Source: a virus. Taken from it: a DNA stretch of 64,000 bases. The stretch lies in the IMG/VR virus record IMGVR_UViG_3300027969_000050, positions 76,267-140,266 of that record, one strand, 5' to 3'. Of this stretch, positions 5,363 through 39,204 are shown in pieces. The first letter of the stretch is position 1. Each line of letters opens with the position of its first letter. The notes below the pieces were generated by a model that did not search any database, was not told the DNA's origin, and saw only the letters and a list, made by a program, of their open reading frames with translations. The position numbers and the translations under genes were made by a program.

Positions 5363-5409
5363 ACAAACGGAAGGCTAAACCGACCGCTCAGGCGGTCGTT
5401 TCCGTTTGT
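5363..5409. terminator. Long hairpin between convergent transcription units
   Basis: ACAAACGGAA...CGACCGC-TCAG-GCGGTCG-TTTCCGTTTGT. Confidence 0.65.
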
Positions 5410-5508
5410 CTCTCCAAACCGCGATTTCATCACGCACCAAACCGCGAACAAAGAGCGCTGGAAGCAACGCCCAGAAAACGATCTCCGTTATCTCGTGGCC
5501 GCGAAACT

Positions 5509-6969
5509 TCACAAACCGCTTTCTTTCCAGTCGAACACGCCTGACGTTCTTCCCAAAGCCAAATTGAGAAGTTTGTCTCGTTCGTTGATCGAAGGATCGC
5601 CAATCACCTGACCCATAAGGCTCTCAAGAATTTGTCCGATCTCTGGGCCTCGAGGAACGCCAGCCTCAATTAAATCTTGGCCGTTGATTGCCAACTGAGA
5701 AAGATCAGTCGGCTGCTGCTGCTGGCGCACTTGATCCACAAGGCCGCGCTGAACCTCGTACTCGTTGTCATCAAACGCATCTTGCCCTTCGCCCTTCGCC
5801 GCTTGATCAGCCCAGCGCAGGTTCAGCAGATCATCTGCGTGCGGCTCGACCCGATTTAAAAATTTTCTTGCGCCCTTCTCCGAGTCAAACGGGGCAAACA
5901 TATGGTGCTTTACGAGGTCCGAAACCCGATCAGTCCTGTCCTTCGGGTACCTCAAACGGGTCATTGCGTCCCTAGTCATTTCCTCACCGACGAGTTCGTG
6001 TTGCTGACCTATTGTGCTTCCGTCAGGCAGGCGCTTCTGGTAGTAATGGTTTGTTCCTCGCTCTGGATTCACCCAAGCGGATGCGGGCTTGCCAATATCG
6101 TGGAGCAAACCGGCCAAACGGGCATCTGGGTCATCAGTTTTCTGACTGATTCGGTCAAGCACGTCAAGCATATGCTCGCCAAGTTCTAAAGCGTGGTGCG
6201 GATTGTTCTGGTCGTAGCCGAACGTTGCATCGACCTCAGGCAAAATATATTTAAGTACGCCGCTGTCGTGGGCCAAACGGATGGCGCCGACTGGGTCGTC
6301 CGAAGAAAAAATTTTATCCAGCTCTGCTTGCACTCTTTCGGCTGGGAGATGTTGGAGGCTTGCTGCCGCCTCAGCCATTTGGGCAATCGTTCCCTCGTCA
6401 GGGTGAAGGCCATGCCGACCCTTAGCCACAAGCGCCCTAGCAACCCTGAGCGGATCCTCGCTTAGCGACTGGTCGTGGATTGTTCTTAGTCGCCCACCTG
6501 CGATGTCCTCAGCGCCATTGTGCGGATCAATAAGTTCGCCCGTTCCTAGATTGACGGCCATCGCATTCGCTGTGAAGTCACGCCTCAAAAGATCTTCTTC
6601 AGGCGAAAGGGTGTGGTCGGCATCAACAGAAAAATCCGTGTGCTTGTCGCCAGTTGACTGTTCGTGGCGAGGCAGCGCGATCTCGACCTCCTCACCGCCC
6701 TGCTTGTAACGAAAGACGCCAAAATCTTTTCCTGTGTAATCAATGTCTCCACCCAGTGGAGCTAAAACCGAATCAATATTTTCTTTTGGAATACCAGAGA
6801 CCATGAGGTCAATGTCCTTCGGGGTCTTGCCCATGATCGTGTCCCGGACCGCGCCTCCAACTGCGTAAACCTGCCCACCAGCAGCCATAAGCGCTTCAAC
6901 AACGGGCTGAATAACAGGATTGCTTGCGACAATTTGCCTTACCGACTGTCCCACATTGTCCTCAGCGGC
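5509..6969 (-). other. cca: CCA-adding enzyme/HD domain of the giant ORF
   Basis: All class II nucleotidyltransferase signature motifs present; flexible loop (PRHEQSTGDKHTDF) retained; LAINGQDL...GPEIG tail. Confidence 0.88.
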
Positions 6970-9900
6970 TCCGAAGTGAAACTCGTCTCCGCCCTGACCT
7001 CGCGCCCTTCCACGGAGGCCTCCGCCCGGTTGTAGGTCCGGCTGACCCAAGGCGCGATTGATCATTTCCACCTGATCGGGGGTTGGGTTTCCATAAAAAC
7101 TGATCTTCTGATCCTCTCTTGGCGGACCCGAGGCGTGACTATTCGGGGGCCAAGTTACTCGACCACTGAGAAAGGTTCCTTCCTGAAGGGCTTTCATCCA
7201 GAAAGTGATTGCGCTGGCGCCATCCCCATTCAAAAATTTATTTCTGAATTCGGAATCCTGCGAGAGCATCTCGTAGTGATAGCCACCGGGCGGTCCAAAA
7301 TAAACGGCGTTGTCCTCCGGGAGATAGAACCAAGGGGCGTCTAGTTCAGGACTCTTGTGAACTTCGTTGGGCTGGAACTTGATGTAAACGACTTTTGGAG
7401 GATTCAGTTCGTCAAATGCCCCGAAACGAAAATCTTCTTCTTGCTCATCCAGAACCTCATCCGCAGGAAAAATATTTCTTAGGGCGTCGTTGACTCCCGG
7501 AGCCGGTTCCGTCAGACCTTGATTGTCGGAGTTTGGAAACGAATCTTCCCAACTAAAATTACCTGAATTTTGCCAATACTCGCCTCTGCAAGGATCGCCC
7601 GCCGCAATCAAATTTTCTCCAACGTTCTCAGAGAGTCCCATAGGACGACCCACCCTTGGAATATCAAACTCGTTTATAAGGTCCTCGTGATACTGACCGC
7701 GAAGGCCAACGTAAAGCGCATTGGCGGAAGGCCAATAGATAAACGGAATTCGGTTTTCGTGGTAGTCCATTCCTTTCCTATTGTGTTCTTCATTCTGAGA
7801 TATGAAAACCGTGACGCCTTGCCTAGTTCTATAGGTGCCAGCGGCTCCGAAACGGAAGCCCTCATCTTCTTGAGCCGGATCAGAAAAAATATTTATTAGC
7901 GCGTCGTTGAGTCCTGCTTCTGGTTCGGTGCCTTCATCGTTGAACCACTGAAGGGAGTCGTAGCTTGGTGGAATAAAACTTCCGTCACCCGGAACGCGGC
8001 GCCAATACTCGCCGTGTGTGTCAGGCCCAAAACCGCCGCGTAAATCGAAATCGGCTTCCGTCCAAGCCCCCCGAATGTCGAATTCTTCTACAAGGTCGTC
8101 GTGATACTGGCCAAAGACGCCAACATAGAGCGCGTTATTGACAGGGCAATAAATAAATGGCGCCCTGTCCTTGTTGAAAACCCTATGTTCATCTGGATCT
8201 TGTGATATCAAAACATCGGTGCCAAACTCAGTGGCCGCCCCGAAATGAAAGTCTTCAGGGCTTTCGCTTTGCCTCAAATCATCTAGATCAGCAAGCGGAT
8301 AGTCGGGCAAACCAAGCGCTTCGCAGATGGCTGGAGCCAATGCCGCCGCCTCTGGGTTATTGGGATCAACAAAGTCGGGCATCAGGCGGTCAAACCTCGT
8401 CCAAAAAGAAAATCTTGGCGCGTCCTCGAGTCCGGCCTCCCTAAGAGCTTTTTCAATGATCACATGATGGATGTCGGGAACCGAGCCAATCCAAATTTGT
8501 CCCTGCTCAGGCAAAACAATTAGGGAGTAGCCTCCAAGCTCATCTCCTTCCCTAGGAATAATTATTCCTTTGTTCGCACGGCCCGTGCCGACAACTCGAC
8601 CATCATCATCAAGCCAAACGGGAGTTAATTCTGTCGAGGATCCAAAGTGGAATTCTGAGGCTCCTCCGCCAACAAGGCCATTCAAAGCAGTAATCATTTC
8701 CGCTTGGACGCTTTCGGGGACTCGGCTGCCATAAAACACCAAGTCATTTGGCGGCGAGAACCTTCCAAAGAAATCATAAGACCCGTACTGATTGACGACG
8801 CCTCTAGGAAGCTTATTTGTCATTTCGTTATGAAAGCCGTCTTCCCTTCCAATAGCAATGCTCCATCCATCGTGCCGCGTCGCGTCAGGGTTCATCTCGA
8901 GATAGCGCCGTTCTTCTTCGGCTGGGACGCCGAACCGCTCTTCGATGTTTATGTCTAGGGTTCCTTCGTCCCAAGCAACAACAGGGTAAAGCTTGTCCAT
9001 ACCTGCACTCGGATAAGGGGTACTCTCCAAATATTCTCCGTGGCTTGGATAATCGGGATCCGCCTTGGCGCCCCTGAGGTCAAGCAGCTCGACATGGCTT
9101 AAGATGGCTCGAGATTTTTTCTTTGCGCCCTCATCATCTCCTTGGCCTTCTTCGCTAAGATTTTTTAATTCTGAGATGTCGGTTGGCTCTTCAGGAATGA
9201 TCATTGGTCCGCCCATTGATTTGGGGCAAGGACCGGGCTTGTGATTGAAGCCGCATTCCTCACAGGCACCAAATTTTAAATCCTCTTCGTCAAGCTCAAC
9301 ACGCACTTGTTCGCTCTTACGACGGAACTTATCAAGCACCTTTTGGATGCGCGAAGTTGACTTTTTTCCTCCAGAGAGAAAATCGGAGTTCCGGATACCA
9401 CTTTCATTTTCATTTTCGAACGAATTCACCCAGTTTCTAAGGATATTTGCGAAGATCGGGGCGTCAAGTTCATCATCTTTGGCAAATGCGTTTGCCTGAC
9501 TATCGGCAGGTTGGGCAGGTTGCGTATCAGAGAAGGAAAAGTCAGGATCCCCAAGGAAATGATCAACAATTCCCTCGCCTCCTTGCGGATCAAACGCCTC
9601 CCAGCCTGTTCCAAAGGGCTTGTTGTCTGCTCCGAACTTAAAATCTTCTTGCTCCCACTGCTGGCTAATGTCAAGATTGTCGATAAAGGCCTTGATATTA
9701 GAGGGGATCGGCTGTTCATCATAAGGCGGGCGCATCCAATCAACCGGACCAAATTGACTTTTCCTTCCTTCCCACGCAGCTCCGTCGATTGCGCCCAAAG
9801 TCAAATGCGAGTCCCAAGTGGTTCCAACTTGAACCGTGTTGCTTTTTGGCCAATAAATAATCGGACAGTCGCCTCGAGGATCGGGCGCACCGCCGCCGGT

Positions 9901-11982
9901 TGATTCAAAGACGACCTTTGGCTCCTCTGAAGCGCCAAATTTAAAATCTTTGGGCGTTCCAAAGAACTCATCAAGCTTTGCTTCGCAAGCAGCCTTCTCT
10001 GATTCGGATAAATTTTCCAGACCAGACCCCCACAGTTCGCCATCGTATCGGCACTGAGCAACAAAAGTAAGATCTTTGTTTACATCCACCGCTCTGTTAG
10101 GAATGTCTGAGTGGTAGGCCCCTTCAGCTCCGATATACATATTGATTAGGCTTGCTGGCGCCCATTCGGAACTTTGGTCCAACAAGGCATAAATATAAAC
10201 TGGGTGGGACACGCCACCACCCTCATCATCATGTTCAGATCCGTAGTCGGATTCCTTGATTAGATCGATGACATTGATCTCTGGTTGCTCTGCCGCTCCA
10301 AACTTAAACCCGGGAGTGGTACCCAAAAATTCATCCAGACTATTTTGAATGTCTTCACGAAGCATGGGATCACCATCAGCAATAAAATCGCGTCCATGAG
10401 GATAACGCAGAAGAGGCAAAGTTGAGATATCCACCCCATCAATCTCTGCTCGTTTTGCGACCTCACGGAATTTCGGATCCCCCATAATTTCTTCGTGATA
10501 GCCATTTGGCCTACCGACGAAAACTTCGTATTTTATATCGCCCTCCCAAGGATGTCCTACCGGAACAATTATTATTGGCCAATCGGTTCCACCGGTATCG
10601 ATTCTTTCGTTGTGGTCTCCGTGAAGGTCACGGACTCCAGTCAGGTCAACCACCTCAACAAAATTAGGAAGCGAGCCGCCTTCGTCTTCTAAGACCGAAC
10701 CGAACTTAAACCCGGGATCCGTACCCAAAAACTCGTCCAGATCCTTTTGGATGTTTTCCGGGACGTATTGGCGTCCAGACGGGTAGCGACTGTAGCCGAC
10801 CTCTTCGTACCACTTCCGTGAAAAGACATCAGAACCGGACATGCGTTTTTCGAACTCGGGATCCTCTTCTATTTCAGTATGGAAGCCGTTTTCTCTGCCA
10901 ACAAAGACGGTCCAGCGATTTCCTACTGGAACAATAATTATTGGCCAGTCAAAGGATCTAGGTTGCTTGCTTGGTTCGTCCCCGACTTCAGAAATAAAAG
11001 CGTCGTGGCCACCGAAGCGATCATCCATTTCGGTTAGGTCGATGATCTCGACATCCTCATTAGAACCGAATTTAAAATCGTCTTGAACTCCGAGGGCCGA
11101 CTTTACCGCTGAATCAAATTCGACTGTCCATCCATCGGGGTACCCCCGGCCAGCGGAGCCATACTCATGCTCGCTGCCCAAAAGCATCCACTGGGTAATT
11201 GCATCGTTTACACGAAATAAAGCAACTTGATCACCGTAAAAACGATCAACATACCTTGCTCCTCCGGGAGAGGCGATGCCACGCGCAGTAAGTACCGTCA
11301 TCACATCTTCATGGAAATCATCATAACTTCCAATAAAAGCCCTTGTCTCCGTCGGGCCTAAGATTGCTATTCCGGGTCGATCTCCGGTTCCATGCGAACC
11401 GTTAAGATTTGCGTCGTTGGCGTCTGAGGTATCAAGGATTTCTACTGAGACTGGGACGGTCTCGATCTGTGAGCGCAACCTGCCATCAGAACCAAATTTA
11501 AAATCTTCTTGTGCGGGACCCATTACTGGCGCCACTCGCTGTAATTCTGACTTGACTGCTGATTCAAATTCGGGAGGTGGACGTGGAATTTCCACAGTGT
11601 CCGTCCAATCACTGGAATTGTTCCCGTACCAATCCTCAATAGTTCCATCAGGATAAACCCGGAAACAAACAACCGGGCCAAGATCGGAAGAGAAAGCGCG
11701 AAAGTCTCCCGGCTGTTGGGTCAGAATTCCCTGAGCTTCCAATATGGCAATTAAGTCATAATGAAATGCTTGATATTCGCCAATGAAAACCTTTATCTCC
11801 GTCGGGGCAAAGATCGCTACTCCGGGGCGGTCTCCGGTGTCGTGCGTTTGCCACGAGTCATAATGCCTTGACTCTGAGGTGTCGAGAACCTCAACTGAAA
11901 TTGGAAGCGAGTAATTCAGAACCCGCGTCACACCGTCAATGTTGGTCCAGCCGTCATTGTCAAATTCGGTTAGGTCGTCCAC
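5509..11982 (-). CDS. Giant repeat-array polyprotein-like protein with C-terminal class II tRNA nucleotidyltransferase (CCA-adding enzyme) and HD domain
   Basis: 12 units ending in [FL][KRH]FG[AS]; C-terminal ~486 aa carry VGGAVRD, DID, EDLLRRDFT.NA, EDPLR and HD motifs (HH..EH, LLHDIGKP, QHELVG, HHM). Confidence 0.9.
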   Translation of the reverse strand: MDDLTEFDNDGWTNIDGVTRVLNYSLPISVEVLDTSESRHYDSWQTHDTGDRPGVAIFAPTEIKVFIGEYQAFHYDLIAILEAQGILTQQPGDFRAFSSDLGPVVCFRVYPDGTIEDWYGNNSSDWTDTVEIPRPPPEFESAVKSELQRVAPVMGPAQEDFKFGSDGRLRSQIETVPVSVEILDTSDANDANLNGSHGTGDRPGIAILGPTETRAFIGSYDDFHEDVMTVLTARGIASPGGARYVDRFYGDQVALFRVNDAITQWMLLGSEHEYGSAGRGYPDGWTVEFDSAVKSALGVQDDFKFGSNEDVEIIDLTEMDDRFGGHDAFISEVGDEPSKQPRSFDWPIIIVPVGNRWTVFVGRENGFHTEIEEDPEFEKRMSGSDVFSRKWYEEVGYSRYPSGRQYVPENIQKDLDEFLGTDPGFKFGSVLEDEGGSLPNFVEVVDLTGVRDLHGDHNERIDTGGTDWPIIIVPVGHPWEGDIKYEVFVGRPNGYHEEIMGDPKFREVAKRAEIDGVDISTLPLLRYPHGRDFIADGDPMLREDIQNSLDEFLGTTPGFKFGAAEQPEINVIDLIKESDYGSEHDDEGGGVSHPVYIYALLDQSSEWAPASLINMYIGAEGAYHSDIPNRAVDVNKDLTFVAQCRYDGELWGSGLENLSESEKAACEAKLDEFFGTPKDFKFGASEEPKVVFESTGGGAPDPRGDCPIIYWPKSNTVQVGTTWDSHLTLGAIDGAAWEGRKSQFGPVDWMRPPYDEQPIPSNIKAFIDNLDISQQWEQEDFKFGADNKPFGTGWEAFDPQGGEGIVDHFLGDPDFSFSDTQPAQPADSQANAFAKDDELDAPIFANILRNWVNSFENENESGIRNSDFLSGGKKSTSRIQKVLDKFRRKSEQVRVELDEEDLKFGACEECGFNHKPGPCPKSMGGPMIIPEEPTDISELKNLSEEGQGDDEGAKKKSRAILSHVELLDLRGAKADPDYPSHGEYLESTPYPSAGMDKLYPVVAWDEGTLDINIEERFGVPAEEERRYLEMNPDATRHDGWSIAIGREDGFHNEMTNKLPRGVVNQYGSYDFFGRFSPPNDLVFYGSRVPESVQAEMITALNGLVGGGASEFHFGSSTELTPVWLDDDGRVVGTGRANKGIIIPREGDELGGYSLIVLPEQGQIWIGSVPDIHHVIIEKALREAGLEDAPRFSFWTRFDRLMPDFVDPNNPEAAALAPAICEALGLPDYPLADLDDLRQSESPEDFHFGAATEFGTDVLISQDPDEHRVFNKDRAPFIYCPVNNALYVGVFGQYHDDLVEEFDIRGAWTEADFDLRGGFGPDTHGEYWRRVPGDGSFIPPSYDSLQWFNDEGTEPEAGLNDALINIFSDPAQEDEGFRFGAAGTYRTRQGVTVFISQNEEHNRKGMDYHENRIPFIYWPSANALYVGLRGQYHEDLINEFDIPRVGRPMGLSENVGENLIAAGDPCRGEYWQNSGNFSWEDSFPNSDNQGLTEPAPGVNDALRNIFPADEVLDEQEEDFRFGAFDELNPPKVVYIKFQPNEVHKSPELDAPWFYLPEDNAVYFGPPGGYHYEMLSQDSEFRNKFLNGDGASAITFWMKALQEGTFLSGRVTWPPNSHASGPPREDQKISFYGNPTPDQVEMINRALGQPDLQPGGGLRGRARGQGGDEFHFGAAEDNVGQSVRQIVASNPVIQPVVEALMAAGGQVYAVGGAVRDTIMGKTPKDIDLMVSGIPKENIDSVLAPLGGDIDYTGKDFGVFRYKQGGEEVEIALPRHEQSTGDKHTDFSVDADHTLSPEEDLLRRDFTANAMAVNLGTGELIDPHNGAEDIAGGRLRTIHDQSLSEDPLRVARALVAKGRHGLHPDEGTIAQMAEAAASLQHLPAERVQAELDKIFSSDDPVGAIRLAHDSGVLKYILPEVDATFGYDQNNPHHALELGEHMLDVLDRISQKTDDPDARLAGLLHDIGKPASAWVNPERGTNHYYQKRLPDGSTIGQQHELVGEEMTRDAMTRLRYPKDRTDRVSDLVKHHMFAPFDSEKGARKFLNRVEPHADDLLNLRWADQAAKGEGQDAFDDNEYEVQRGLVDQVRQQQQPTDLSQLAINGQDLIEAGVPRGPEIGQILESLMGQVIGDPSINERDKLLNLALGRTSGVFDWKESGL
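6970..11982 (-). repeat. Array of 12 protein-level repeat units
   Basis: Delimiter motifs at 11491, 11065, 10699, 10297, 9934, 9631, 9268, 8641, 8239, 7846, 7420, 6970; G-x5-H in 11 units. Confidence 0.85.
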
Positions 11983-12178: not shown

Positions 12179-12190
12179 TTACGGAAGATA

Positions 12191-12421
12191 TCAGGGCAAA
12201 AGAGCGCTGTCAATACCGTGAGTCGAAAAGTCTGTATCAACGTATCCACGAGCGCGGGCTTCTGTGACGGCAAGAAACTCTTCGTACACAGCGTCTCCAG
12301 TGTGATTGAACATCGCTCGGTCGTAAGCGTCGCCCTTGCTCTGGAACTCACGAATGACCTGTAGCAACTTGATGTTGCCCATTGCTTTGTAGTTGCGTGG
12401 CCTTTTGCTTAGGTATGTCAT
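12191..12421 (-). CDS. Hypothetical protein
   Basis: ATG 9 nt downstream of an extended -10 element (TGcTATAAT at 12431-12439). Confidence 0.55.
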   Translation of the reverse strand: MTYLSKRPRNYKAMGNIKLLQVIREFQSKGDAYDRAMFNHTGDAVYEEFLAVTEARARGYVDTDFSTHGIDSALLP

Positions 12422-15467: not shown

Positions 15468-16218
15468 CAGTCTTTACGTCCTTGATTAGCCCTGAATAGT
15501 TGGTCTTGGCGATGTATTCGCCAGTAGACTCGCTGATCTGATCTAGCAGGCCTCGATTGGCCAGCATCTTGTAGACAAGATTGGACGGAGCGAAGTCGCC
15601 CTTGCCTGCTCTCTGGTCAATCCGACGGCGCTTATGGATCTGGTGCCAAAAGGTCTTGGCCTTGTAAGGCTCGTAACGCAGTAGGCGCTCCATTTTGTCA
15701 GCCTGCTCTAGCGCGTAGGTGTAAGCGGAGTTATAAATTACCTCTGGATCCCTAGCCATTTCGCGGTCAGGAGGATTAACCCACTCGTCATTGAGAATCT
15801 CGTAGCCCGAACGCAGCCCCTTCTTATAGAGATCGGTTGGCAAAACGCCCTCTGGCACAATAAATACCTGAAGGGGATGAGTGGTCATCGGAAGAATGCT
15901 TCCGTCCAACTGCTCAACTGCGATGCCAATCATCTCGGCCCTTGACCACTCAGGAAAAATTTCTGAGTTGACGAACAAGGAGATGTCAAAATCGCTGTCT
16001 TCCGAGTACTGGTAGGTCGTGAGGCTGCCAGTGACGTAAAGGCTGCCCCAGTTCTGGACATCGTAGCCATGCTCGTTAAACCTGTCAAAGACAAGCTTCT
16101 CAACCCACGTTTTATGCTCAAATTTCAGCGTTGGCTTGACGGATACCGACCCGTCCCAGACCGTAGGGTCTAGCGTTTCATTGATCGGATCGAGAATATT
16201 AGACTTCTTAGGCTTCAT
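15457..16218 (-). CDS. Pol-beta superfamily nucleotidyltransferase
   Basis: hG-S-x9-SDxD motif: LYVTGSLTTYQYSEDSDFDISL. Confidence 0.8.
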   Translation of the reverse strand: MKPKKSNILDPINETLDPTVWDGSVSVKPTLKFEHKTWVEKLVFDRFNEHGYDVQNWGSLYVTGSLTTYQYSEDSDFDISLFVNSEIFPEWSRAEMIGIAVEQLDGSILPMTTHPLQVFIVPEGVLPTDLYKKGLRSGYEILNDEWVNPPDREMARDPEVIYNSAYTYALEQADKMERLLRYEPYKAKTFWHQIHKRRRIDQRAGKGDFAPSNLVYKMLANRGLLDQISESTGEYIAKTNYSGLIKDVKTDAR

Positions 16219-18181
16219 AGCGTCCGTCCCTCAGATCAACGCGATCCTCCACGATCTCCTTGGCGTCCTCGACAATAAAAATTTTAAGCACGGATGACCT
16301 CGAGTCCCTCCTCCAAGTAAAAGCCCCTTGATCAAGGCCAATCAGGTTTAGCTCACCGAGTCCCTCGAGCGTCCGGCGGACTAATTTTTTATTTTTTGAG
16401 ACAACCTTGAACATGTCTGGAGTTGGAACTTCTCCTTGCTTTGCCACCTTGAGGGCGTTGCCAACAGCAAAAACCTCGCATCCAGCGGTCAATAAGGCCG
16501 AAGTTACGGCCTCTACGTCAGAATTGCTCAAAGACCCAATGAAAACAAGGCTGCCTGTGTTTGCAAGCTTCGTCGTTCCGCCATTAATATTTTGCAGCTC
16601 CACTGAGTTGACCTTCAGCTCAGGATGCTGGTAATACCAGAGGCGAATCAGGTGACGCACTGTGTAGGGGATCGTCGTCGTAGATTTAATTAGGAGCTTT
16701 TTAGAGTCGTAAACGCCTTGAACCGTGTTCTCATAGCCAGAATCTACCGAGAGATCAGCAACCTGCATGCCCGGATCCCCAACAACAATCGAGTCATCCT
16801 CAACGTCGTAAATAAAAGGAATGGGCAGGGCGACTGGGTCTACCGCCGACATAAAAGTGATTTCGCCCACTCCTTGAGGCTGTCTCGGGGTGAAATGCGG
16901 ATTAAAAGTAGCGTCTGGATCAGTGTTAGGGAAGTGATCGTTCATGACTAGCGTGTCGGATTCGGCCTCGCGGTGCTTAATGAACTCGTGCCACGATGGA
17001 AGGAGCTGCTCGCATTCAGGACATTGATAGAGGCCATTAATTCTTTTTGGGTCCGAAAGTCCAATGGACCCATTTTGCTGTCCGGCGATTGCGCTTTCCT
17101 CTGCTGCGGTGTCGTTGAAGAACTGGCCGTCATCATTGGCCGGATTTGGGTTTGAAAAGTTGTGTTCTTCCAAATCCTCGATGCGCTTTACAACGTTGTC
17201 ATTGCCAGCCAGAACAAACTTCAAATTGTTGTCATCGGCGTATTCGTTCAGTGCGGACAGAAGCTTAACCCCAAAAATTTTATTTGGGAGCTGGATGTCA
17301 TCTCCTTCAACCTTGAGAGTCCCAACCGTCATTTGCCCCGAAAGACGGGTCGCAATCTTGGACCAGTCCTGCTTATGCGAGATTAGGCACTCGTCTCCTT
17401 GCTGAACAAAATAAAGATAAGAAGTCTTTGAGGCCACTTCATGGCCCTCCATGTTGGAAAGGCCGCTCCAAGAAAGACCAACGGAGTTGCAGTACTGCTT
17501 CAGGACATCCGAGAGCGCATTGAGGCCAATATTTGTTTCGACCTCCCATGATGCATTGTCATCCGGGTCAATTTTTAGCGTCCCAACTGCAATTGGCCCC
17601 GAAGTTTCGGGGTTTACTAGGCTTTCGAGCGGTTTGTCATCGACGATGAGCTGCCCATCCGCATAAGAAAAATTTAATTTCTTCGGTTCACGCATGTCGT
17701 GGTCCATGTACGACCGATCAATGTGATCTCGATTGTCCTGAGCCTGAGGTTCCTCAGCAGGAAGGGCGTCACCGGCATAATCCATTGAGACGCGAGCAAA
17801 GTGATTGAGGTTCTTGAAAATATTTTCTGCTCGATCAGCGAAACGCTCACTCCTCTCGGTGGCCTTTGGACGAACAACATCTAGTCCTCGGTAAAGGGGG
17901 TGCGACATGGACTTGTAGATGATGTACTTGTACCGGTCGCAGGTCAGGTCAATTACATATTTTTTGTCGGACGAGACCCAGACGTAGTGGCCATTGTCCT
18001 CGCCAATAAAGCCGCCAAGACGGCGCGTAAGCCAGAATGAGGTGACGTAGCACTGGCCTTTAGAGGCGTCCTGATCTCCACTGAACTCGGGGTGGCGGGT
18101 GTCGTCGTTCCACGCTTTTTCTGCGGCAGACTTAAGGGCGTGTAACTCGCCCTGAGAAATTGACTTAGGATCGAAGGTCAA
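16208..18181 (-). CDS. Multidomain protein: papain/transglutaminase-like (YunG-like) domain, zinc finger, repeat unit, degenerate CCA-enzyme head
   Basis: GQCYV...GHYVW...IDLT; YQCPEC...FIKH; PIPFIY...VVGDPG; ALLTAGCEVFAVGNALK. Start set at the TTG overlapping the upstream stop, after GGAGA. Confidence 0.75.
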   Translation of the reverse strand: MTFDPKSISQGELHALKSAAEKAWNDDTRHPEFSGDQDASKGQCYVTSFWLTRRLGGFIGEDNGHYVWVSSDKKYVIDLTCDRYKYIIYKSMSHPLYRGLDVVRPKATERSERFADRAENIFKNLNHFARVSMDYAGDALPAEEPQAQDNRDHIDRSYMDHDMREPKKLNFSYADGQLIVDDKPLESLVNPETSGPIAVGTLKIDPDDNASWEVETNIGLNALSDVLKQYCNSVGLSWSGLSNMEGHEVASKTSYLYFVQQGDECLISHKQDWSKIATRLSGQMTVGTLKVEGDDIQLPNKIFGVKLLSALNEYADDNNLKFVLAGNDNVVKRIEDLEEHNFSNPNPANDDGQFFNDTAAEESAIAGQQNGSIGLSDPKRINGLYQCPECEQLLPSWHEFIKHREAESDTLVMNDHFPNTDPDATFNPHFTPRQPQGVGEITFMSAVDPVALPIPFIYDVEDDSIVVGDPGMQVADLSVDSGYENTVQGVYDSKKLLIKSTTTIPYTVRHLIRLWYYQHPELKVNSVELQNINGGTTKLANTGSLVFIGSLSNSDVEAVTSALLTAGCEVFAVGNALKVAKQGEVPTPDMFKVVSKNKKLVRRTLEGLGELNLIGLDQGAFTWRRDSRSSVLKIFIVEDAKEIVEDRVDLRDGRYEA

Positions 18182-19242
18182 AACGGCATCTCCGAATTGG
18201 GATCTTCCCAAATTTCATCTGCCGATCCGAACTGTGGATCGTCGCTGAAGAACAGCTCGTCCTTTGTGGGGGCGCGAAAATCAAACATTTGGCTTGGTTT
18301 TACAATGGGGTAGCTGTTCTCATGCGGATTCATAAATGGGTTTTCAAAGGGAATCTGCTTCAGAAGCGCGTACTGCTCAGGGTCCGACTTAGGTTGAGCG
18401 CGAAACTTGCCAAATCCGTAGTAAGTCGTGTTGGCCCTTGACCCGCCGCTGCCCTGCCAGCCGGAAAGAGGAGTCTCCTTGACATAGATATCAACCATGC
18501 TATTGTTGAAGTCGAAGACGGGCAAAACGGCCAGCAATGCGTCAATGTCGTTGTTCCCTTGCGTGTAGGCTTCAGCTTCAGCCGTCCTACGAGCCGCTAC
18601 GTTCTCATGCTCTGCTGGCACCTCAGGGACGTTCATGCGAGGCTGTATTCCAAGCTGCTGGGAAAGCTCAGGCTCATGGGTTGCGTAATTAGCCGCGTAG
18701 TCATGCTTCTTGGCTCGGTCAGCGTTGTTCACGATGAACTCTGGATTAGCATTATCGACGTTTGCAGACTTGACCTCGATCCCGTAAACGGTTCCATTGG
18801 CGTCACGAGACAATCCGTCTAGGCGACCGTGTTCCGCAGCTCCACCCGAAGACAGTGATTCGACACCCGGCTGCCACCAAATAATTTCTCCGTACTTGGC
18901 CTGCCACTCAGGACTCTTGGAAACGACTTCGTTAATAGCCGCCTCGCCCATTTTCCCAAATTGACTGAGCGACATCCCTGCGCGGGCGACATGCTCATTG
19001 TCTTGTTCTTTATCAATTCGTTCAAGAAGATCCTGATTTTGACCGCAATGTGGGCAGTCATACTCGCTGTACTGGCGCTCTGTAAGCCAATCGATGCCCT
19101 GAGGCGAAGCGTAGAAATGACACCTAGGAGCCTCGCACTTTCTCCAGCCGTTTGCTACGGCCTCCTGAGCCTCGGCGGAGGTCTCCATAACCTCGCCAAG
19201 ATGCAGGCCGTCCTCTTCGATTGGGTAGCTGGAAGTTCGCAT
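18178..19242 (-). CDS. Zn-ribbon plus PD-(D/E)XK nuclease-like protein
   Basis: CEAPRC/CPHC; GKMGE helix; RLDG...YGIEVKS. Confidence 0.65.
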   Translation of the reverse strand: MRTSSYPIEEDGLHLGEVMETSAEAQEAVANGWRKCEAPRCHFYASPQGIDWLTERQYSEYDCPHCGQNQDLLERIDKEQDNEHVARAGMSLSQFGKMGEAAINEVVSKSPEWQAKYGEIIWWQPGVESLSSGGAAEHGRLDGLSRDANGTVYGIEVKSANVDNANPEFIVNNADRAKKHDYAANYATHEPELSQQLGIQPRMNVPEVPAEHENVAARRTAEAEAYTQGNNDIDALLAVLPVFDFNNSMVDIYVKETPLSGWQGSGGSRANTTYYGFGKFRAQPKSDPEQYALLKQIPFENPFMNPHENSYPIVKPSQMFDFRAPTKDELFFSDDPQFGSADEIWEDPNSEMPF

Positions 19243-35897: not shown

Positions 35898-37307
35898 TTA
35901 CTTAAAGTAAGAAACATCGCAATGACCAATCCCGTCACATGTGTGTGGCGTTGGTCCGGTTTGCCCATCCGTAAACTGAACCGCCCAGAGGTTCTTCTTG
36001 GCGATTTCCGGAACATTAGATTCCGGACTTGATGAATAATTTGCGTGCCAGTAACGAAGCGGCTTTTTGTTTTGATCCACTGGCCACTTTTCCAGAGTTC
36101 CATTAATGTACCAGCCGCCACTGTAGAGAACGCGAACTGTGTATCCAAGACGCGCTACCTCTTTGATGAAGGTCGCAACCCAAACATCTCCCTTTTTGTT
36201 CTCAAATTTCGGATCTTCCCAATCGAGGACGATTCGTTCGTCTGCCTTTAGCTTGCCCGCTTTTTTGATTGCATCAACAAGGTTCTTGGCTTCCGCCTCT
36301 GGCTTGTTACCGTTTCCGGGACGAGCAAAGTGATAGACAAATCGAGTCAACCCAAGCTTACCGGCTTCTGCAAATCGCTTTACAAACTCATGGTCTTGGA
36401 AGGTAGCACCTTCGCTTGCCTTAAGAATAATGAGAGAATGACCCGCAGCCTTGTACTTAGCCAAATCAATTGGGGCATCGCCCTCATAGATATCAGCAAA
36501 GTACTTAGCGTTGGGATTGGCCTTTGGCTTTTTTGTTGCCTTTGGTTTTGCGGTCGGCTTCTTCTTAGGAGCGGGTTTTGGCTTCGGGGTAGGAGTTGGG
36601 GCAGGGGTTGGTTTAGGCGTCGGCTTAACCGGAGGCTTTGGCGTTGGCGCCTTTGCCTTTGGCTTTTTTACAGCCGGTTTACGAAGAGCCTTCCAAGTTC
36701 CGAGTCCTACAACTCCGTCAGCGGTTAGCTTCTTGGCCTTTTGGAACTTGATAACCTGAGACTTAGTTGCACGGCCAAAAGTATTGCTCTTTGTCGGGTA
36801 CGGCCAGAAGCCGTGCCTCTTGAGAAGAGTTTTTAGCGTATGGACCTCGGGGCCTTTGCTGGCTCTAGTTAAGGTTGGATCAGCGTGCCATTTGACAACG
36901 GCTGGATAGTTACCAGCCCTCCATTTAAAGTGCCAAGGCTCTGAAGCGCCATCTGACCACTTTTTGGCCCAGCCAAATTGTTCGCCGTAGTTGGCAATTA
37001 AATTTTGTGTGGGCGTGTCAGCGTCAACAGCAATTCCTAATCCATGATTTGATGTTCCGGGAACAGCGGCTAGGTTTCCTCCGCTTTTGTATTTTTCCCA
37101 TGCCGCGTTTTGACTCCATGCCCCACGAGAAAGATCTCCGGGTCGTCCCAAAGGCCTGTAAGAGTCATTGACCCCAACGTTCCGTCCGTGCTTCTCTTTA
37201 CAGAAGCGAGCAAAGGCGTTCCAAGCCTCTGCGGCGTCGTCGCGTAGTTGCCCCCCGCCAGCGATGCTCGTCAGTTCATATGGTTTAAGTTTTCCGTTAG
37301 CGCTCAT
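35898..37307 (-). CDS. Endolysin: M15 (VanY-like) peptidase, peptidoglycan-binding domain, Pro/Lys linker, GH25 muramidase
   Basis: SYR, PGTSNHGLG.AVD, EPWH; FQK...ADGVVG..TW; DIY, KASEG, YHFA, VLDWE, QFT. Confidence 0.88.
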   Translation of the reverse strand: MSANGKLKPYELTSIAGGGQLRDDAAEAWNAFARFCKEKHGRNVGVNDSYRPLGRPGDLSRGAWSQNAAWEKYKSGGNLAAVPGTSNHGLGIAVDADTPTQNLIANYGEQFGWAKKWSDGASEPWHFKWRAGNYPAVVKWHADPTLTRASKGPEVHTLKTLLKRHGFWPYPTKSNTFGRATKSQVIKFQKAKKLTADGVVGLGTWKALRKPAVKKPKAKAPTPKPPVKPTPKPTPAPTPTPKPKPAPKKKPTAKPKATKKPKANPNAKYFADIYEGDAPIDLAKYKAAGHSLIILKASEGATFQDHEFVKRFAEAGKLGLTRFVYHFARPGNGNKPEAEAKNLVDAIKKAGKLKADERIVLDWEDPKFENKKGDVWVATFIKEVARLGYTVRVLYSGGWYINGTLEKWPVDQNKKPLRYWHANYSSSPESNVPEIAKKNLWAVQFTDGQTGPTPHTCDGIGHCDVSYFK

Positions 37308-38182: not shown

Positions 38183-38254
38183 TGGGGGCGGAAGGACTCG
38201 AACCTTCAACCTTCGGCTTAAAAGGCCGCTGCTCTACCATTGAGCTACGCCCCC
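38183..38254 (-). tRNA. tRNA-Lys(UUU), no encoded CCA
   Basis: GGGGGCG acceptor, GCTC/GAGC D-stem, CT-TTT-AA loop, GGTTCGAGTCC T-arm. Confidence 0.95.
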
Positions 38255-38255
38255 C

Positions 38256-38622
38256 TTGGAACCGTGACTGCGACCATCGTCTATTCCGGGCAAGCCCTAG
38301 TGACTGGTCCACATCGACCTATGCGACGAATATCACACTTGGCACTCCCGTCACAGACGGGTTGATCGATGCTTGGCTCCCACAGGACTTACGGCACGGC
38401 CCGCCTTGCGATAACCTTTAATAAGACGGTACAGAACTGCATTCCAACAGTTCCCCGAATGGCCTAAAAGTGTTATCTAACTAGACCTGTTTGCCGGATA
38501 ACCGTCCGGTCGGCTCTATAGACCTGATCTCATGCAGACTCCTTGCTTTGCTGTGAATTGGACTTAACTCTTTACTCGCTAAAGTTACGCGAACAACCCA
38601 TTGACGTAACTTTAACTGCTAG
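38256..38622 (-). ncRNA. Candidate structured non-coding RNA between tRNAs
   Basis: About 365 nt with no sense-strand ORF in the track and at least five hairpins. Confidence 0.45.
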
Positions 38623-39050
38623 TACGGGGAGTGGGACTCGAACCCACACTGAAAGGATTTTAAGTCCTCGTCCTCTGCCAATTGGGATATCCCCGCCTCG
38701 ACTTCTCTGTGGCAATTAGCGCATAGAAGAACACAATTCTCTATTTCTTCCAAACCCTTTTCAAGGGTAAGAAGCGAAATGCCCCTCTTGCTTGTTTTCA
38801 GATCTGGGTTCAAATGATGAAACTCAAGAGCGCCAATATACGAATCATATCCGCACGCAACGCACTTTCCCCCAGCCGACTCAACCAATGCCTTTTTTCT
38901 TTCTCTTGCATAGTCTGAGGTTGTTTTGATATAAGGTTTTTTCTCTTTTCGGTATTTGGCTATCTTTGCTGCGTTTCTACATTTAGTAGAACAGAACTTT
39001 CTTTTGGGGCTAATGACTTCGTTTGAGCAATTATGCTTATGGCATGTCAT
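38619..39050 (-). CDS. HNH endonuclease (homing-type)
   Basis: FCSTKC; GGKCVACGY...ALEFHHLNP...CVLLCANCHRE. Confidence 0.85.
   Translation of the reverse strand: MTCHKHNCSNEVISPKRKFCSTKCRNAAKIAKYRKEKKPYIKTTSDYARERKKALVESAGGKCVACGYDSYIGALEFHHLNPDLKTSKRGISLLTLEKGLEEIENCVLLCANCHREVEAGISQLAEDEDLKSFQCGFESHSPY
38623..38696 (-). tRNA. tRNA-Leu(UAA), short variable loop, no encoded CCA
   Basis: GCGGGGA/TCCCCGT acceptor, GAGGA-CT-TAA-AA-TCCTT anticodon arm, GGTTCGAGTCC. Confidence 0.9.
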
Positions 39051-39131: not shown

Positions 39132-39204
39132 CTCCCCGACTAGGACTCGAACCTAGGACCTAACGATTAACAGTCGTTCGCTCTGCCAACTGAGCTATCG
39201 GGGA
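39132..39204 (-). tRNA. tRNA-Asn(GUU), no encoded CCA
   Basis: TCCCCGA/TCGGGGA acceptor, AACGA-CT-GTT-AA-TCGTT anticodon arm, T-arm. Confidence 0.95.

What the first reader, a model, noticed from the sequence alone, without database searches (positions are those of the whole stretch)
5509..11982. Candidate phage polyprotein: 12 units ending in a conserved [FL]-[KRH]-F-G-[AS] motif, followed by a CCA-adding enzyme
Seen in sequence: the 2157-aa ORF is cut into units by QEDFKFGS, QDDFKFGS, DPGFKFGS, TPGFKFGA, PKDFKFGA, QEDFKFGA, EEDLKFGA, ASEFHFGS, PEDFHFGA, DEGFRFGA, EEDFRFGA and GDEFHFGA (nt 11491, 11065, 10699, 10297, 9934, 9631, 9268, 8641, 8239, 7846, 7420, 6970). Spacing is 101-209 aa. The motif sits in acidic linkers and is much more conserved than the units. 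The last one lies just before a complete class II tRNA nucleotidyltransferase-HD enzyme. Established: eukaryotic DNA viruses process structural polyproteins after Gly, and phage prohead proteases cut internal head proteins at short recurring motifs. Inference: this is a late-expressed polyprotein cut at FxFG|A/S into about 12 small proteins plus a free tRNA-repair enzyme, possibly packaged in the capsid and injected. I know of no described phage system with this architecture.
Basis: partly seen in the sequence, partly recalled or inferred. Interest (0 to 1): 0.95.

Follow-up and report, generated by a model that had tools for sequence, protein, structure and literature searches.

The report
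Phage cassette protein with junction tags
A 2157-residue protein of an uncultured 140-kb phage is a string of twelve small modules plus a tRNA-repair (CCA-adding) enzyme, each module ending in the same short acidic Phe-x-Phe-Gly tag; the tag marks module borders in about thirty related giant phage proteins, and it may be a cutting site, though no cutting has been shown.

Summary
ORF 5509..11982 (-) has 12 [FL][KRH]FG[AS] sites spaced 101-209 aa, followed by an intact class II CCA-adding/HD enzyme.

Eleven units are diverged paralogues of one unannotated ~100-130-aa domain with an invariant G-x5-H.

New findings:
- The domain occurs in 94 cluster representatives, mostly 1-5 kaa proteins of uncultured phages.
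- The tag recurs at module borders in 31 of them (141 sites, 6.8 expected). Each lineage has its own form (FKFG, WHFG, WKFG, YHFG, W-x-L-S-R-T-A).
- The tag also brackets unrelated modules (CCA, LigT).
- Close relatives gain and lose whole units exactly at the tags.
- Proteins end 0-4 aa after a tag seven times more often than chance.
- The tag is a hydrophobic island in polar spacers of variable length. AlphaFold did not place it in the fold, but that model is weak.
- A YunG-like Cys-His-Asp domain, in trans here (16208..18211), is fused to tag-delimited CCA modules in three other lineages.

Verdict: this is a cassette-type "polyvalent" phage protein with a conserved linear junction tag. Proteolytic release of modules is the leading reading (about 0.45-0.5) but is unproven. 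Late expression, capsid packaging and a prohead protease are not supported.

The parts
5509..11982 (-). Giant ORF, 2157 aa (P0001): 12 tag-terminated units plus a CCA-adding enzyme
11491..11982 (-). Unit 1 (aa 1-164), His-domain, ends QEDFKFG
11065..11490 (-). Unit 2 (aa 165-306), His-domain, ends QDDFKFG; absent from P0003 and P0004
10699..11064 (-). Unit 3 (aa 307-428), His-domain, ends DPGFKFG
10297..10698 (-). Unit 4 (aa 429-562), His-domain, ends TPGFKFG; absent from P0003 and P0004
9934..10296 (-). Unit 5 (aa 563-683), His-domain, ends PKDFKFG
9631..9933 (-). Unit 6 (aa 684-784), short His-domain, ends QEDFKFG; absent from P0003 and P0004
9268..9630 (-). Unit 7 (aa 785-905), not a His-domain (ADNKPFGTGWEAFDP...), ends EEDLKFG; the unit best conserved in the distant homologues P0006 and P0007 (55-56% identity)
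8641..9267 (-). Unit 8 (aa 906-1114): N-terminal Cys/His knuckle (CEECGFNHKPGPCP) plus a His-domain, ends ASEFHFG
8239..8640 (-). Unit 9 (aa 1115-1248), His-domain, ends PEDFHFG after a 20-aa spacer
7846..8238 (-). Unit 10 (aa 1249-1379), His-domain, ends DEGFRFG; the unit that was modelled
7420..7845 (-). Unit 11 (aa 1380-1521), His-domain, ends EEDFRFG
6970..7419 (-). Unit 12 (aa 1522-1671), His-domain, ends GDEFHFG after a 21-aa Gly/Arg-rich spacer
5560..6870 (-). Class II CCA-adding enzyme: head, RNA-binding, HD and C-terminal domains (aa 1705-2141)
5512..5535 (-). C-terminal tail FDWKESGL, a junction-like aromatic-x-aromatic tag; also ends P0003 and the CCA-less P0004, and is internal in P0006 and P0007
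12185..12213 (-). Promoter-like site TTGACA-17-TATCTT with TG, 10 of 12 matches, about 200 nt upstream of the start codon
   Evidence: consensus match only
5453..5472 (-). Terminator-like hairpin plus T run, 37 nt after the stop codon; a convergent one lies on + at 5381-5398
   Evidence: consensus match only
16208..18211 (-). 667-aa sister gene (P0098): YunG-like Cys54-His75-Asp88 domain (nt 17762-18160), C2H2-like finger, His-less unit core, degenerate CCA-head remnant

Best explanation
The ORF is a cassette-type ('polyvalent') phage protein. It is an array of autonomous modules: eleven diverged paralogues of an unannotated His-containing domain, one unrelated module, and a CCA-adding/HD tRNA 3'-end repair enzyme. 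Each module ends in a short linear junction tag, acidic-[F/W/Y]-[K/R/H]-F-G-[A/S], that sits in a polar spacer. The tag is not part of any one fold. It is read by a common trans-acting factor that co-evolves with it, which explains the lineage-specific forms. The most likely reading of the tag is endoproteolytic processing at or just after the Gly. That would release about 12 small proteins, each keeping the acidic-aromatic tail, plus a free CCA enzyme. The best candidate for the cutter is the co-encoded YunG-like Cys-His-Asp domain (P0098). What is shown: the anatomy, the family, the distribution of the tag and the modular turnover. What is inferred: the tag as a recognition element (about 0.75), actual cleavage (about 0.45-0.5), and the YunG-like domain as the protease (about 0.25). 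The biological role is also inferred. The repeated fusion with CCA, LigT/2H and possibly Tpt1 modules points to a toolkit for repairing tRNA and countering host tRNA-targeting defence, with rapidly exchanged accessory units.
For: The 12 sites and unit borders are exact. Across 96 proteins, [FWY][KRH]FG occurs 141 times in 31 proteins against 6.8 expected. P5 and P6 are acidic, and P1' is A59/S41/K11/N9/G7. Each protein uses its own form of the tag: within-protein identity at position 1 is 0.79 against 0.44 after shuffling, reached in 0 of 2000 shuffles. Further forms are W-x-L-S-R-T-A, W-x-F-P-T-A and W-x-[LI]-S-K-V-A. The tag flanks non-homologous modules: the CCA enzyme, unit 7, the LigT module of P0027, and the single unit-to-CCA junction of P0099 and P0100. 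Whole units are present or absent exactly at tags between relatives that are 72-99% identical in shared units. Natural protein ends coincide with tags: 9 of 94 proteins end 0-4 aa after one against 1.3 expected, and adjacent genes in L007 both end at tag+3. The spacer from the last helix to the tag varies from 4 to 21 aa, and the flanks are depleted of hydrophobic residues. In the AlphaFold model the core scores pLDDT 84-90 while both tags score below 50 to 64 and are not strands. Motif codons vary synonymously. The YunG-like domain is conserved four genes upstream in relatives and is fused in cis in P0027, P0099 and P0100. Its model puts Cys54 at a helix N-terminus and His75 and Asp88 on neighbouring strands. 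From established knowledge: papain-like proteases favour a bulky hydrophobic residue at P2, and viral ones commonly cut G|A or G|S. Iyer et al. 2017 predicted peptidase processing of polyvalent proteins.
Against: No tool shows cleavage. The tag persists at extreme C-termini, including proteins that end exactly at the Gly. It therefore has a role other than being cut, and that role alone could explain its conservation. In some lineages the residue after aromatic-x-F is E, D, T, Q or P rather than G or S, which is awkward for one conserved scissile bond. The YunG-like domain was not found within 10 kb of the giant genes in L009, L011 and L012. Its nucleophile is Ser in P0027. Its fold match is inconclusive. 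Its constant partnership with CCA and LigT enzymes could equally mean that it acts on tRNA. The low pLDDT at the tag is not specific, because the whole C-terminal half of the unit modelled poorly. Dialect coherence is partly confounded by within-protein duplication.
Confidence: 0.5

Rival explanations
1. The protein stays uncut, as beads on a string. It remains one ~240-kDa polypeptide, and the acidic-aromatic tag is a docking peptide at the end of every module. It would bind a common partner by beta-strand addition, in the way SSB C-tails or PDZ class II ligands (hydrophobic-x-hydrophobic) do. The partner could be a groove on the His-domain, a host protein or a packaging or export device. This would give a multivalent assembly.
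For: The tag is kept at extreme C-termini, even where nothing follows the Gly. The ORF's own C-terminus after the CCA domain is again an aromatic-x-aromatic tail, FDWKESGL, which is also kept in the CCA-less P0004. In some lineages the residue after the aromatic-x-F core is not small. No universal protease was found near the distant genes.
Against: The strong preference for Gly or Ser followed by Ala or Ser, and the conserved P1'-P3' part (K-T-A) that is found only at internal junctions, are easier to explain by a scissile site. Modules are freely lost, gained and split into separate genes at the tags, so covalent linkage is not needed.
Confidence: 0.3
2. The tag is structural. F-x-F-G is the last beta-strand, or a hydrophobic latch, of each His-domain, or the first element of the next unit. 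It would then be conserved for folding only.
For: The alternating F-x-F pattern is typical of a strand. The AlphaFold model is too weak in the C-terminal half to exclude packing. The tag often lies a few residues before the first strand of the next unit.
Against: The tag also ends modules that are not His-domains: unit 7 and the LigT module. His-domains exist without it. Its distance from the last helix varies from 4 to 21 aa, and its flanks are polar. Each protein keeps one form of the tag across units that share only about 20% identity. Despite being the most conserved element, the tag scored the lowest pLDDT while the core reached 90.
Confidence: 0.1
3. The protein is a late protein, is cut by the prohead protease inside the procapsid, and its pieces are packaged and injected, as with the T4 internal proteins or the phiKZ/SPN3US ejection proteins.
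For: The gene lies on the same strand as the portal, terminase and tail-fibre genes and ends that block. Synteny with five upstream genes is conserved in relatives. There is precedent for processed ejection proteins (PMC10052503, PMC7411985).
Against: No Peptidase_S78 was found in the 140-kb record (87% complete by CheckV), and the S77 search found nothing, though its controls did not ring either. No prohead protease appeared in the PHROG scans of neighbouring genes. Non-structural genes (a phosphoesterase and a dNMP kinase) lie between the portal and this block. The gene has its own sigma-70-like promoter and terminator. Distant homologues sit among small early or accessory genes next to Apyc1, Ku and AAA_5 genes. 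The known prohead-protease motifs (L/I-x-E, A/S/G-x-E) are unrelated to this tag.
Confidence: 0.12

Closest known systems
Polyvalent proteins of phages and conjugative elements (Iyer, Burroughs, Anand, de Souza, Aravind 2017, PMC5512222)
   Same: Both are giant multidomain phage proteins with mosaic, fast-changing architectures. Both combine nucleic-acid-directed enzymes (here CCA NTase/HD, LigT, ParB-like and PcfJ-like modules) with a peptidase-like domain that is predicted, but not shown, to release the modules.
   Different: No zincin MPTase is present. The bulk of the protein is a tandem array of one new His-domain. A conserved junction tag marks every module border; my term searches of that paper turned up nothing like it, and a full-text search for WHFG found no relevant paper.
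Viral polyproteins cut by papain-like proteases, and polyubiquitin precursors
   Same: Both consist of head-to-tail modules that each end in a short conserved motif ending in Gly, followed by a small residue. The last copy carries a 0-3-residue cap, as polyubiquitin does. A Cys-His-Asp domain is encoded alongside.
   Different: Those systems belong to RNA viruses and eukaryotes. Here no cleavage is shown, the units are not identical, no beta-grasp or other known fold was detected, and the candidate protease is not universal.
Prohead-protease-processed internal or ejection proteins (T4 IPs; phiKZ/SPN3US)
   Same: Both involve paralogous small proteins of large phages cut at a short recurring motif, some with enzymatic cargo (PMC10052503).
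   Different: Those are separate genes cut at x-x-E motifs by an S77- or S80-type protease. Here the units are concatenated, the motif differs, no such protease was found, and packaging is not supported.
Stand-alone phage CCA-adding enzymes (phrog_2244)
   Same: The C-terminal 470 aa match along their full length, with all catalytic motifs present.
   Different: Here the enzyme is one exchangeable cassette at the end of a 1671-aa array. The close relatives P0004 and P0005 lack it.

Membership tests
Class II CCA-adding enzyme (tRNA nucleotidyltransferase with HD domain) | PolyA_pol head domain with GGxVRD and DxD catalytic carboxylates | tested here: met
   PF01743 at 1.1e-23 over aa 1705-1833. 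GGAVRD and DID are read.
Class II CCA-adding enzyme (tRNA nucleotidyltransferase with HD domain) | Motif B (RRD), motif D (EDxxR), the RNA-binding neck, the HD phosphohydrolase domain and the C-terminal tRNA_NucTran2_2 domain | tested here: met
   PF12627 at 6.1e-14, PF01966 at 5e-08 and PF13735 at 1e-06. RRDFT, EDPLR and LLHDIGK are read. phrog_2244 at 4.7e-75.
Class II CCA-adding enzyme (tRNA nucleotidyltransferase with HD domain) | CCA addition to tRNA 3' ends | not testable with these tools
   This needs an enzyme assay. The three phage tRNA genes in the window lack an encoded CCA.
Polyvalent proteins (Iyer et al. 2017) | Several distinct effector or enzyme domains in one polypeptide of a phage or conjugative element | tested here: met
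   The window ORF has the NTase, the HD domain and 11 copies of a new domain. P0027 adds YunG-like, LigT and ParB-like domains. PcfJ occurs in P0022, P0058 and P0075.
Polyvalent proteins (Iyer et al. 2017) | Mosaic architecture that varies between close relatives | tested here: met
   The unit maps of P0001, P0003 and P0004 differ by whole cassettes.
Polyvalent proteins (Iyer et al. 2017) | An associated peptidase domain (typically a zincin MPTase) for processing | tested here: inconclusive
   No MPTase was found. The YunG-like Cys-His-Asp domain is in trans here and in cis in P0027, P0099 and P0100. The fold search was not decisive: 2hly Z 5.8, NAT Z 3.8, protein glutaminase Z 3.5.
Polyvalent proteins (Iyer et al. 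2017) | Delivery with the DNA (virion packaging) | not testable with these tools
   The gene context is ambiguous.
Protease-processed polyprotein | A conserved short motif at every module border, in exposed linkers | tested here: met
Protease-processed polyprotein | A cognate protease is identified | tested here: inconclusive
   The YunG-like candidate is the only one. It is absent near P0010, P0013 and P0022.
Protease-processed polyprotein | Cleavage products are observed | not testable with these tools
   This needs expression or proteomics.
Prohead-protease substrates (T4 IP or phiKZ inner-body type) | A prohead protease gene in the genome | tested here: inconclusive
   PF04586 gave no match, and its controls rang. 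PF03420 gave no match, but its controls did not ring. The record is 87% complete.
Prohead-protease substrates (T4 IP or phiKZ inner-body type) | A cleavage motif ending in Glu (L/I-x-E or A/S/G-x-E) | tested here: not met
   The recurring motif is F-x-F-G-[AS].
Transglutaminase/papain-like Cys peptidase fold (for P0098 residues 18-150) | Cys at a helix N-terminus, with His and Asp on adjacent strands, all conserved | tested here: inconclusive
   The order and placement fit in a model of mean pLDDT 64. Cys is Ser in P0027. Pfam YunG scores 23.6 bits, below the cut-off, for P0098 and 27.9 bits for P0027. The Atlas points to Phage_YunG-like at 0.92.

The most novel reading that the evidence does not exclude
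Large uncultured phages encode true polyproteins. A dedicated junction tag (acidic, aromatic, x, Phe/Leu, Gly/Ser) is cut by a co-evolving phage peptidase; in this lineage that would be the YunG-like Cys-His-Asp domain. Cutting releases a dozen or more small, rapidly exchanged effector domains together with tRNA-repair enzymes (CCA, 2H/LigT, Tpt1-like). Each product keeps an acidic-aromatic C-terminal tail that serves as a second signal. This would be a way of expressing genes and shuffling cassettes that is so far unknown in tailed phages.
Probability: 0.3. Interest if true: 0.85.

Novelty: new variant of a known kind. Interest (0 to 1): 0.72.

Why it matters
Polyprotein expression is a hallmark of RNA viruses and some eukaryotic DNA viruses. 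To my knowledge it is essentially undescribed in tailed phages.

This work defines three things:
- a conserved junction tag, written in lineage-specific forms;
- a new domain family, found in 94 cluster representatives among 1.84 billion;
- a candidate peptidase.

These make the question directly testable with a short tagged construct.

If the tag is cut, it gives a rule for parsing hundreds of kilobases of unannotated giant phage ORFs into functional units. It also gives a natural site-specific protease and site pair. If the tag is not cut, it is a new multivalent docking signal.

In either case, the linkage of the array to CCA-adding, 2H and possibly Tpt1 enzymes points to a phage toolkit aimed at tRNA damage, a current theme in anti-phage defence.

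Tried and rejected
- Nucleotide and protein searches of 50,697 GenBank phage records found nothing.
- An IMG/VR scan with units 9-12 found no relative.
- Pfam and PHROGs found nothing in the N-terminal 1680 aa.
- A profile search against PDB sequences found nothing.
- Fold searches with the unit model gave no match (VIA-wide Z below 2, BFVD E above 0.07). The model is too weak to call the fold new.
- The Atlas look-alikes for a unit were unnamed viral clusters, with crAss muzzle at low share. I treated this as a lead only.
- Fold searches with the YunG-like model were inconclusive.
- A search for shorter split homologues found none. That search depends on shared words, so this is weak evidence.
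- A full-text search for WHFG found nothing relevant. A search for YunG was swamped by an author name.
- Rejected: eukaryote-like FG-nucleoporin FxFG repeats. The spacers here are folded 100-200-aa domains, not low-complexity sequence.
- Rejected: N-O acyl-shift autoproteolysis of the Nup98 HFS type. P1' is Ala at half the sites, so there is no nucleophile.
- Rejected: a DNA-level repeat or gene conversion. The motif codons differ synonymously.
- Rejected: the tag as a homologous-recombination junction. Twelve nucleotides with synonymous variation are too short.
- An all-against-all comparison did not reveal a non-His module common to all tag-bearing proteins that could be a universal protease.

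Full report
OBSERVATION

The minus-strand ORF 5509..11982 is open for 2157 codons. It holds exactly twelve [FL][KRH]FG[AS] sites. F-x-F-G occurs 11 times against about 0.6 expected from composition. Unit lengths run from 101 to 209 aa. The motif codons differ synonymously between copies, so the conservation acts on the protein.

The last 470 residues are a complete class II CCA-adding enzyme with an HD domain. All catalytic motifs are readable. The window is part of a 140,266-bp IMG/VR virus record, 87% complete by CheckV. It carries portal, terminase, tail-fibre, DNA polymerase and RNR genes.

THE UNITS

The units are not arbitrary segments. Eleven are paralogues of one domain. Its parts, in order, are:
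- a first strand (V-x-V-I-D);
- an optional G-x-H;
- P-[IVF]-I-Y-x-P;
- x-V-[FY]-V-G-x3-G-x-H-x-[DE]-[ILM];
- a variable region with W and R-[FY]-x-P;
- a last helix ending in L-G;
- an acidic spacer;
- the tag.

Unit 7 lacks the core. Unit 8 carries a Cys/His knuckle at its N-terminus. Pfam, PHROGs and PDB sequence profiles do not recognise the domain.

An AlphaFold model of unit 10 with flanks was built on a 29-row alignment of paralogous and orthologous units. It gave a confident N-terminal core (residues 20-77, pLDDT 84-90; three strands plus helices starting at the invariant His). The C-terminal half was poor. Both tags in the construct scored below 50 to 64 and were not strands. Fold searches found nothing.

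THE FAMILY

A word-based search found five relatives, P0003 to P0007. A full HMMER scan of 1.84 billion cluster representatives with the unit profile found 94 proteins at E<=1e-3. Most are 1-5 kaa long and carry several copies.

The tag generalises. [FWY][KRH]FG occurs 141 times in 31 of 96 proteins, against 6.8 expected. P5 and P6 are acidic, and P1' is mostly Ala or Ser. Each protein uses its own form:
- FKFG/FHFG here;
- WHFG in P0022, P0058 and P0035;
- WKFG in P0033 and P0091;
- YHFG in P0066;
- W-x-L-S-R-T-A in P0013;
- W-x-F-P-T-A in P0024;
- W-x-[LI]-S-K-V-A in P0027.

Within-protein coherence exceeds all 2000 shuffles. Duplication within a protein contributes to that result. Proteins that lack the aromatic half keep a [SG]-[KH]-[TVM]-A half at the same place. 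The full element is therefore a 7-mer, as in W-H-F-G-K-T-A.

IS THE TAG PART OF A FOLD?

Six lines of evidence argue that it is a linear element.
1. It ends modules that are not His-domains: unit 7, the LigT module of P0027, and the junction before every CCA module.
2. The spacer from the last helix varies from 4 to 21 aa.
3. The four residues before the tag are 5% hydrophobic and 84% polar.
4. Whole units are gained and lost exactly at tags between relatives whose shared units are 72-99% identical. P0003 lacks units 2, 4 and 6. P0004 lacks units 2, 4, 6 and 10 and the CCA enzyme, and has an extra unit 8-like cassette.
5. Natural protein ends coincide with tags. Nine of 94 proteins end 0-4 aa after one, against 1.3 expected. 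In L007 two adjacent tag-bearing genes both end at tag+3.
6. The stand-alone protein P0080 begins about four residues after the equivalent junction of unit 12, and P0048 ends at that unit's tag.

The AlphaFold result agrees with this. It is weak on its own, because the whole C-terminal half modelled poorly.

IS THE TAG CUT?

Nothing here shows cleavage.

In favour:
- Gly or Ser is followed by Ala or Ser.
- Phe at P2 is invariant. This is the classical preference of papain-like proteases, stated from established knowledge.
- A P' half is present only at internal junctions.
- Modules are autonomous.
- The lineage-specific forms are what co-evolution with a reader would produce.

Against, or at least complicating:
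- The aromatic half persists at extreme C-termini, sometimes ending exactly at the Gly.
- The ORF's own C-terminus after the CCA domain is again an aromatic-x-aromatic tail, FDWKESGL. The CCA-less P0004 shares it.
- In some lineages the residue after aromatic-x-F is E, D, T, Q or P.

The tag therefore has a role as a C-terminal tail of each module. That role alone could explain its conservation. The two roles are compatible, as they are in polyubiquitin.

A CANDIDATE READER

The 667-aa gene four genes upstream (P0098) has an N-terminal YunG-like domain. Pfam scores it at 23.6 bits, below the cut-off, and the Atlas points to Phage_YunG-like at 0.92. G-Q-C, G-H-[YF]-V-W and V-[IL]-D-L-T are conserved. 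A modest model (pLDDT 64) puts Cys54 at a helix N-terminus and His75 and Asp88 on neighbouring strands. Fold searches were inconclusive: 2hly Z 5.8, and the Cys-His-Asp enzymes NAT and protein glutaminase only at Z 3.5-3.8.

The gene is syntenic in relatives. The same protein is also fused in cis elsewhere:
- P0027 is P0098-like residues 3-650 (with Ser in place of Cys), then His-units with W-x-L-S-K-V-A tags, a LigT/2H domain, a ParB-like domain and the CCA enzyme.
- P0099 and P0100 are the YunG-like domain and body, one His-unit, a tag and the CCA enzyme.
- The C-terminus of P0098 is a degenerate CCA head (E 0.002).

This is a Rosetta-stone link between the two window genes. It does not prove a protease-substrate relation. 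A Cys-His-Asp hydrolase that is always partnered with tRNA 3'-end enzymes could itself act on tRNA. The domain was not found within 10 kb of P0010, P0013 or P0022.

TIMING AND PACKAGING

- Between the portal and this block lie a metallophosphoesterase and a dNMP kinase.
- No S78 prohead protease was found; the S77 search found nothing, but its controls did not ring.
- The best sigma-70-like promoter match of the region (10 of 12, with TG) lies about 200 nt upstream of the ORF, and a terminator-like hairpin lies 37 nt downstream. These are consensus matches only.
- In distant relatives the giant gene lies among many small genes on the same strand, next to Apyc1, Ku and AAA_5/DUF2201 genes. That context looks early or accessory.

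LIKELY ROLE

The enzymes carried by these arrays are the CCA NTase/HD (here and in P0003, P0006, P0007, P0027, P0099 and P0100), LigT/2H (P0027; 22.6 bits against a 23.3-bit cut-off) and a weak Tpt1/KptA match (P0029, E 0.007). All of these act on damaged RNA or tRNA ends. The three phage tRNA genes in the window lack an encoded CCA. The fast turnover of His-units resembles that of anti-defence loci. I infer a toolkit for tRNA repair and counter-defence. The biochemical function of the His-domain remains unknown.

COMPARISON WITH KNOWN SYSTEMS AND NOVELTY

The closest described concept is the polyvalent protein of Iyer et al. 2017 (PMC5512222). Those authors predicted, but did not show, peptidase processing. 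New here are the junction tag with its lineage-specific forms, the His-domain family, and the link between the YunG-like domain and the CCA enzyme. Prohead-protease substrates (PMC10052503) differ in motif, gene organisation and protease. A full-text search for WHFG found nothing relevant, and the family has no relative among 50,697 GenBank phage records.

VERDICT

My estimates are:
- the tag is a linear recognition element: about 0.75;
- it is cut: about 0.45-0.5;
- the YunG-like domain is the cutter: about 0.25;
- the prohead-protease and packaging scenario: about 0.12.

Earlier notes of this scan on the same stretch (the repeated His-domain, the sister gene, the CCA-less tRNAs) agree with what I tested. 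None came from other DNA.

Noticed in passing
window 16208-18211 (-): The 667-aa P0098 is colinear with residues 3-650 of the 2163-aa P0027 and with the N-terminal halves of P0099 and P0100 (about 1200 aa, with a live CCA enzyme). Its own C-terminus is a degenerate CCA head (E 0.002). It looks like a decayed YunG-CCA protein whose CCA function now sits in the giant ORF.
   Followed up: partly
window 38183-38254, 38622-38696, 39132-39204 (-): Three phage tRNA genes (Lys-UUU, Leu-UAA, Asn-GUU) have no genomically encoded CCA (3' flanks TTT, TAG, TTT). Their transcripts therefore need a CCA-adding enzyme.
   Followed up: yes
window 5512-5535 (-); P0004 C-terminus; P0006 and P0007 internal: The terminal peptide (P)FDW[KE]ESGL ends the protein whether or not the CCA module is present. 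In P0006 and P0007 it lies directly after the last F-H-F-G. It may be a second signal, or the terminal form of the junction tag.
   Followed up: no
window 9268-9630 and 9130-9267 (-): Unit 7 (ADNKPFGTGWEAFDP...ILRNWVNSFEN) and the following knuckle CEECGFNHKPGPCPKS are the parts best conserved across P0001 and P0003-P0007, more so than any His-unit. Their function is unknown.
   Followed up: no
L005 (P0003 aa ~992-1320) and L006 (P0007 aa ~1000-1130): An unrelated module (TDYLDSREAKQWLPHP...HLRFGVDWERM...) is inserted inside unit 11 in P0003 and before the CCA enzyme in P0007. This is an example of cassette movement that does not sit at a tag.
   Followed up: no
G000:C1:68424-70388 (-), outside the window: A second ORF of the same phage (655 aa) carries one His-domain (E 1.5e-9) but no junction tags.
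   Followed up: no
window 12185-12213 (-) and 5453-5472 (-) / 5381-5398 (+): A strong sigma-70-like promoter match and convergent terminator-like hairpins bracket the giant ORF. They suggest that it is its own transcription unit, read by host RNA polymerase.
   Followed up: no
L012 5088-6014; L011 and L001 flanks: Distant giant-protein loci sit next to an anti-Pycsar Apyc1-like gene, Ku, an AAA_5/DUF2201_N pair and a DNA ligase. The same Ku/DUF2201/AAA_5 set lies beside P0005 in L001. This suggests a shared accessory region in this group of ~140-165-kb uncultured phages.
   Followed up: no
window 35898-37307 (-): A 469-aa protein combines a tape-measure-like N-terminus with endolysin-like domains (phrog_291 at 1.6e-24). 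It is probably a virion-associated peptidoglycan hydrolase.
   Followed up: no
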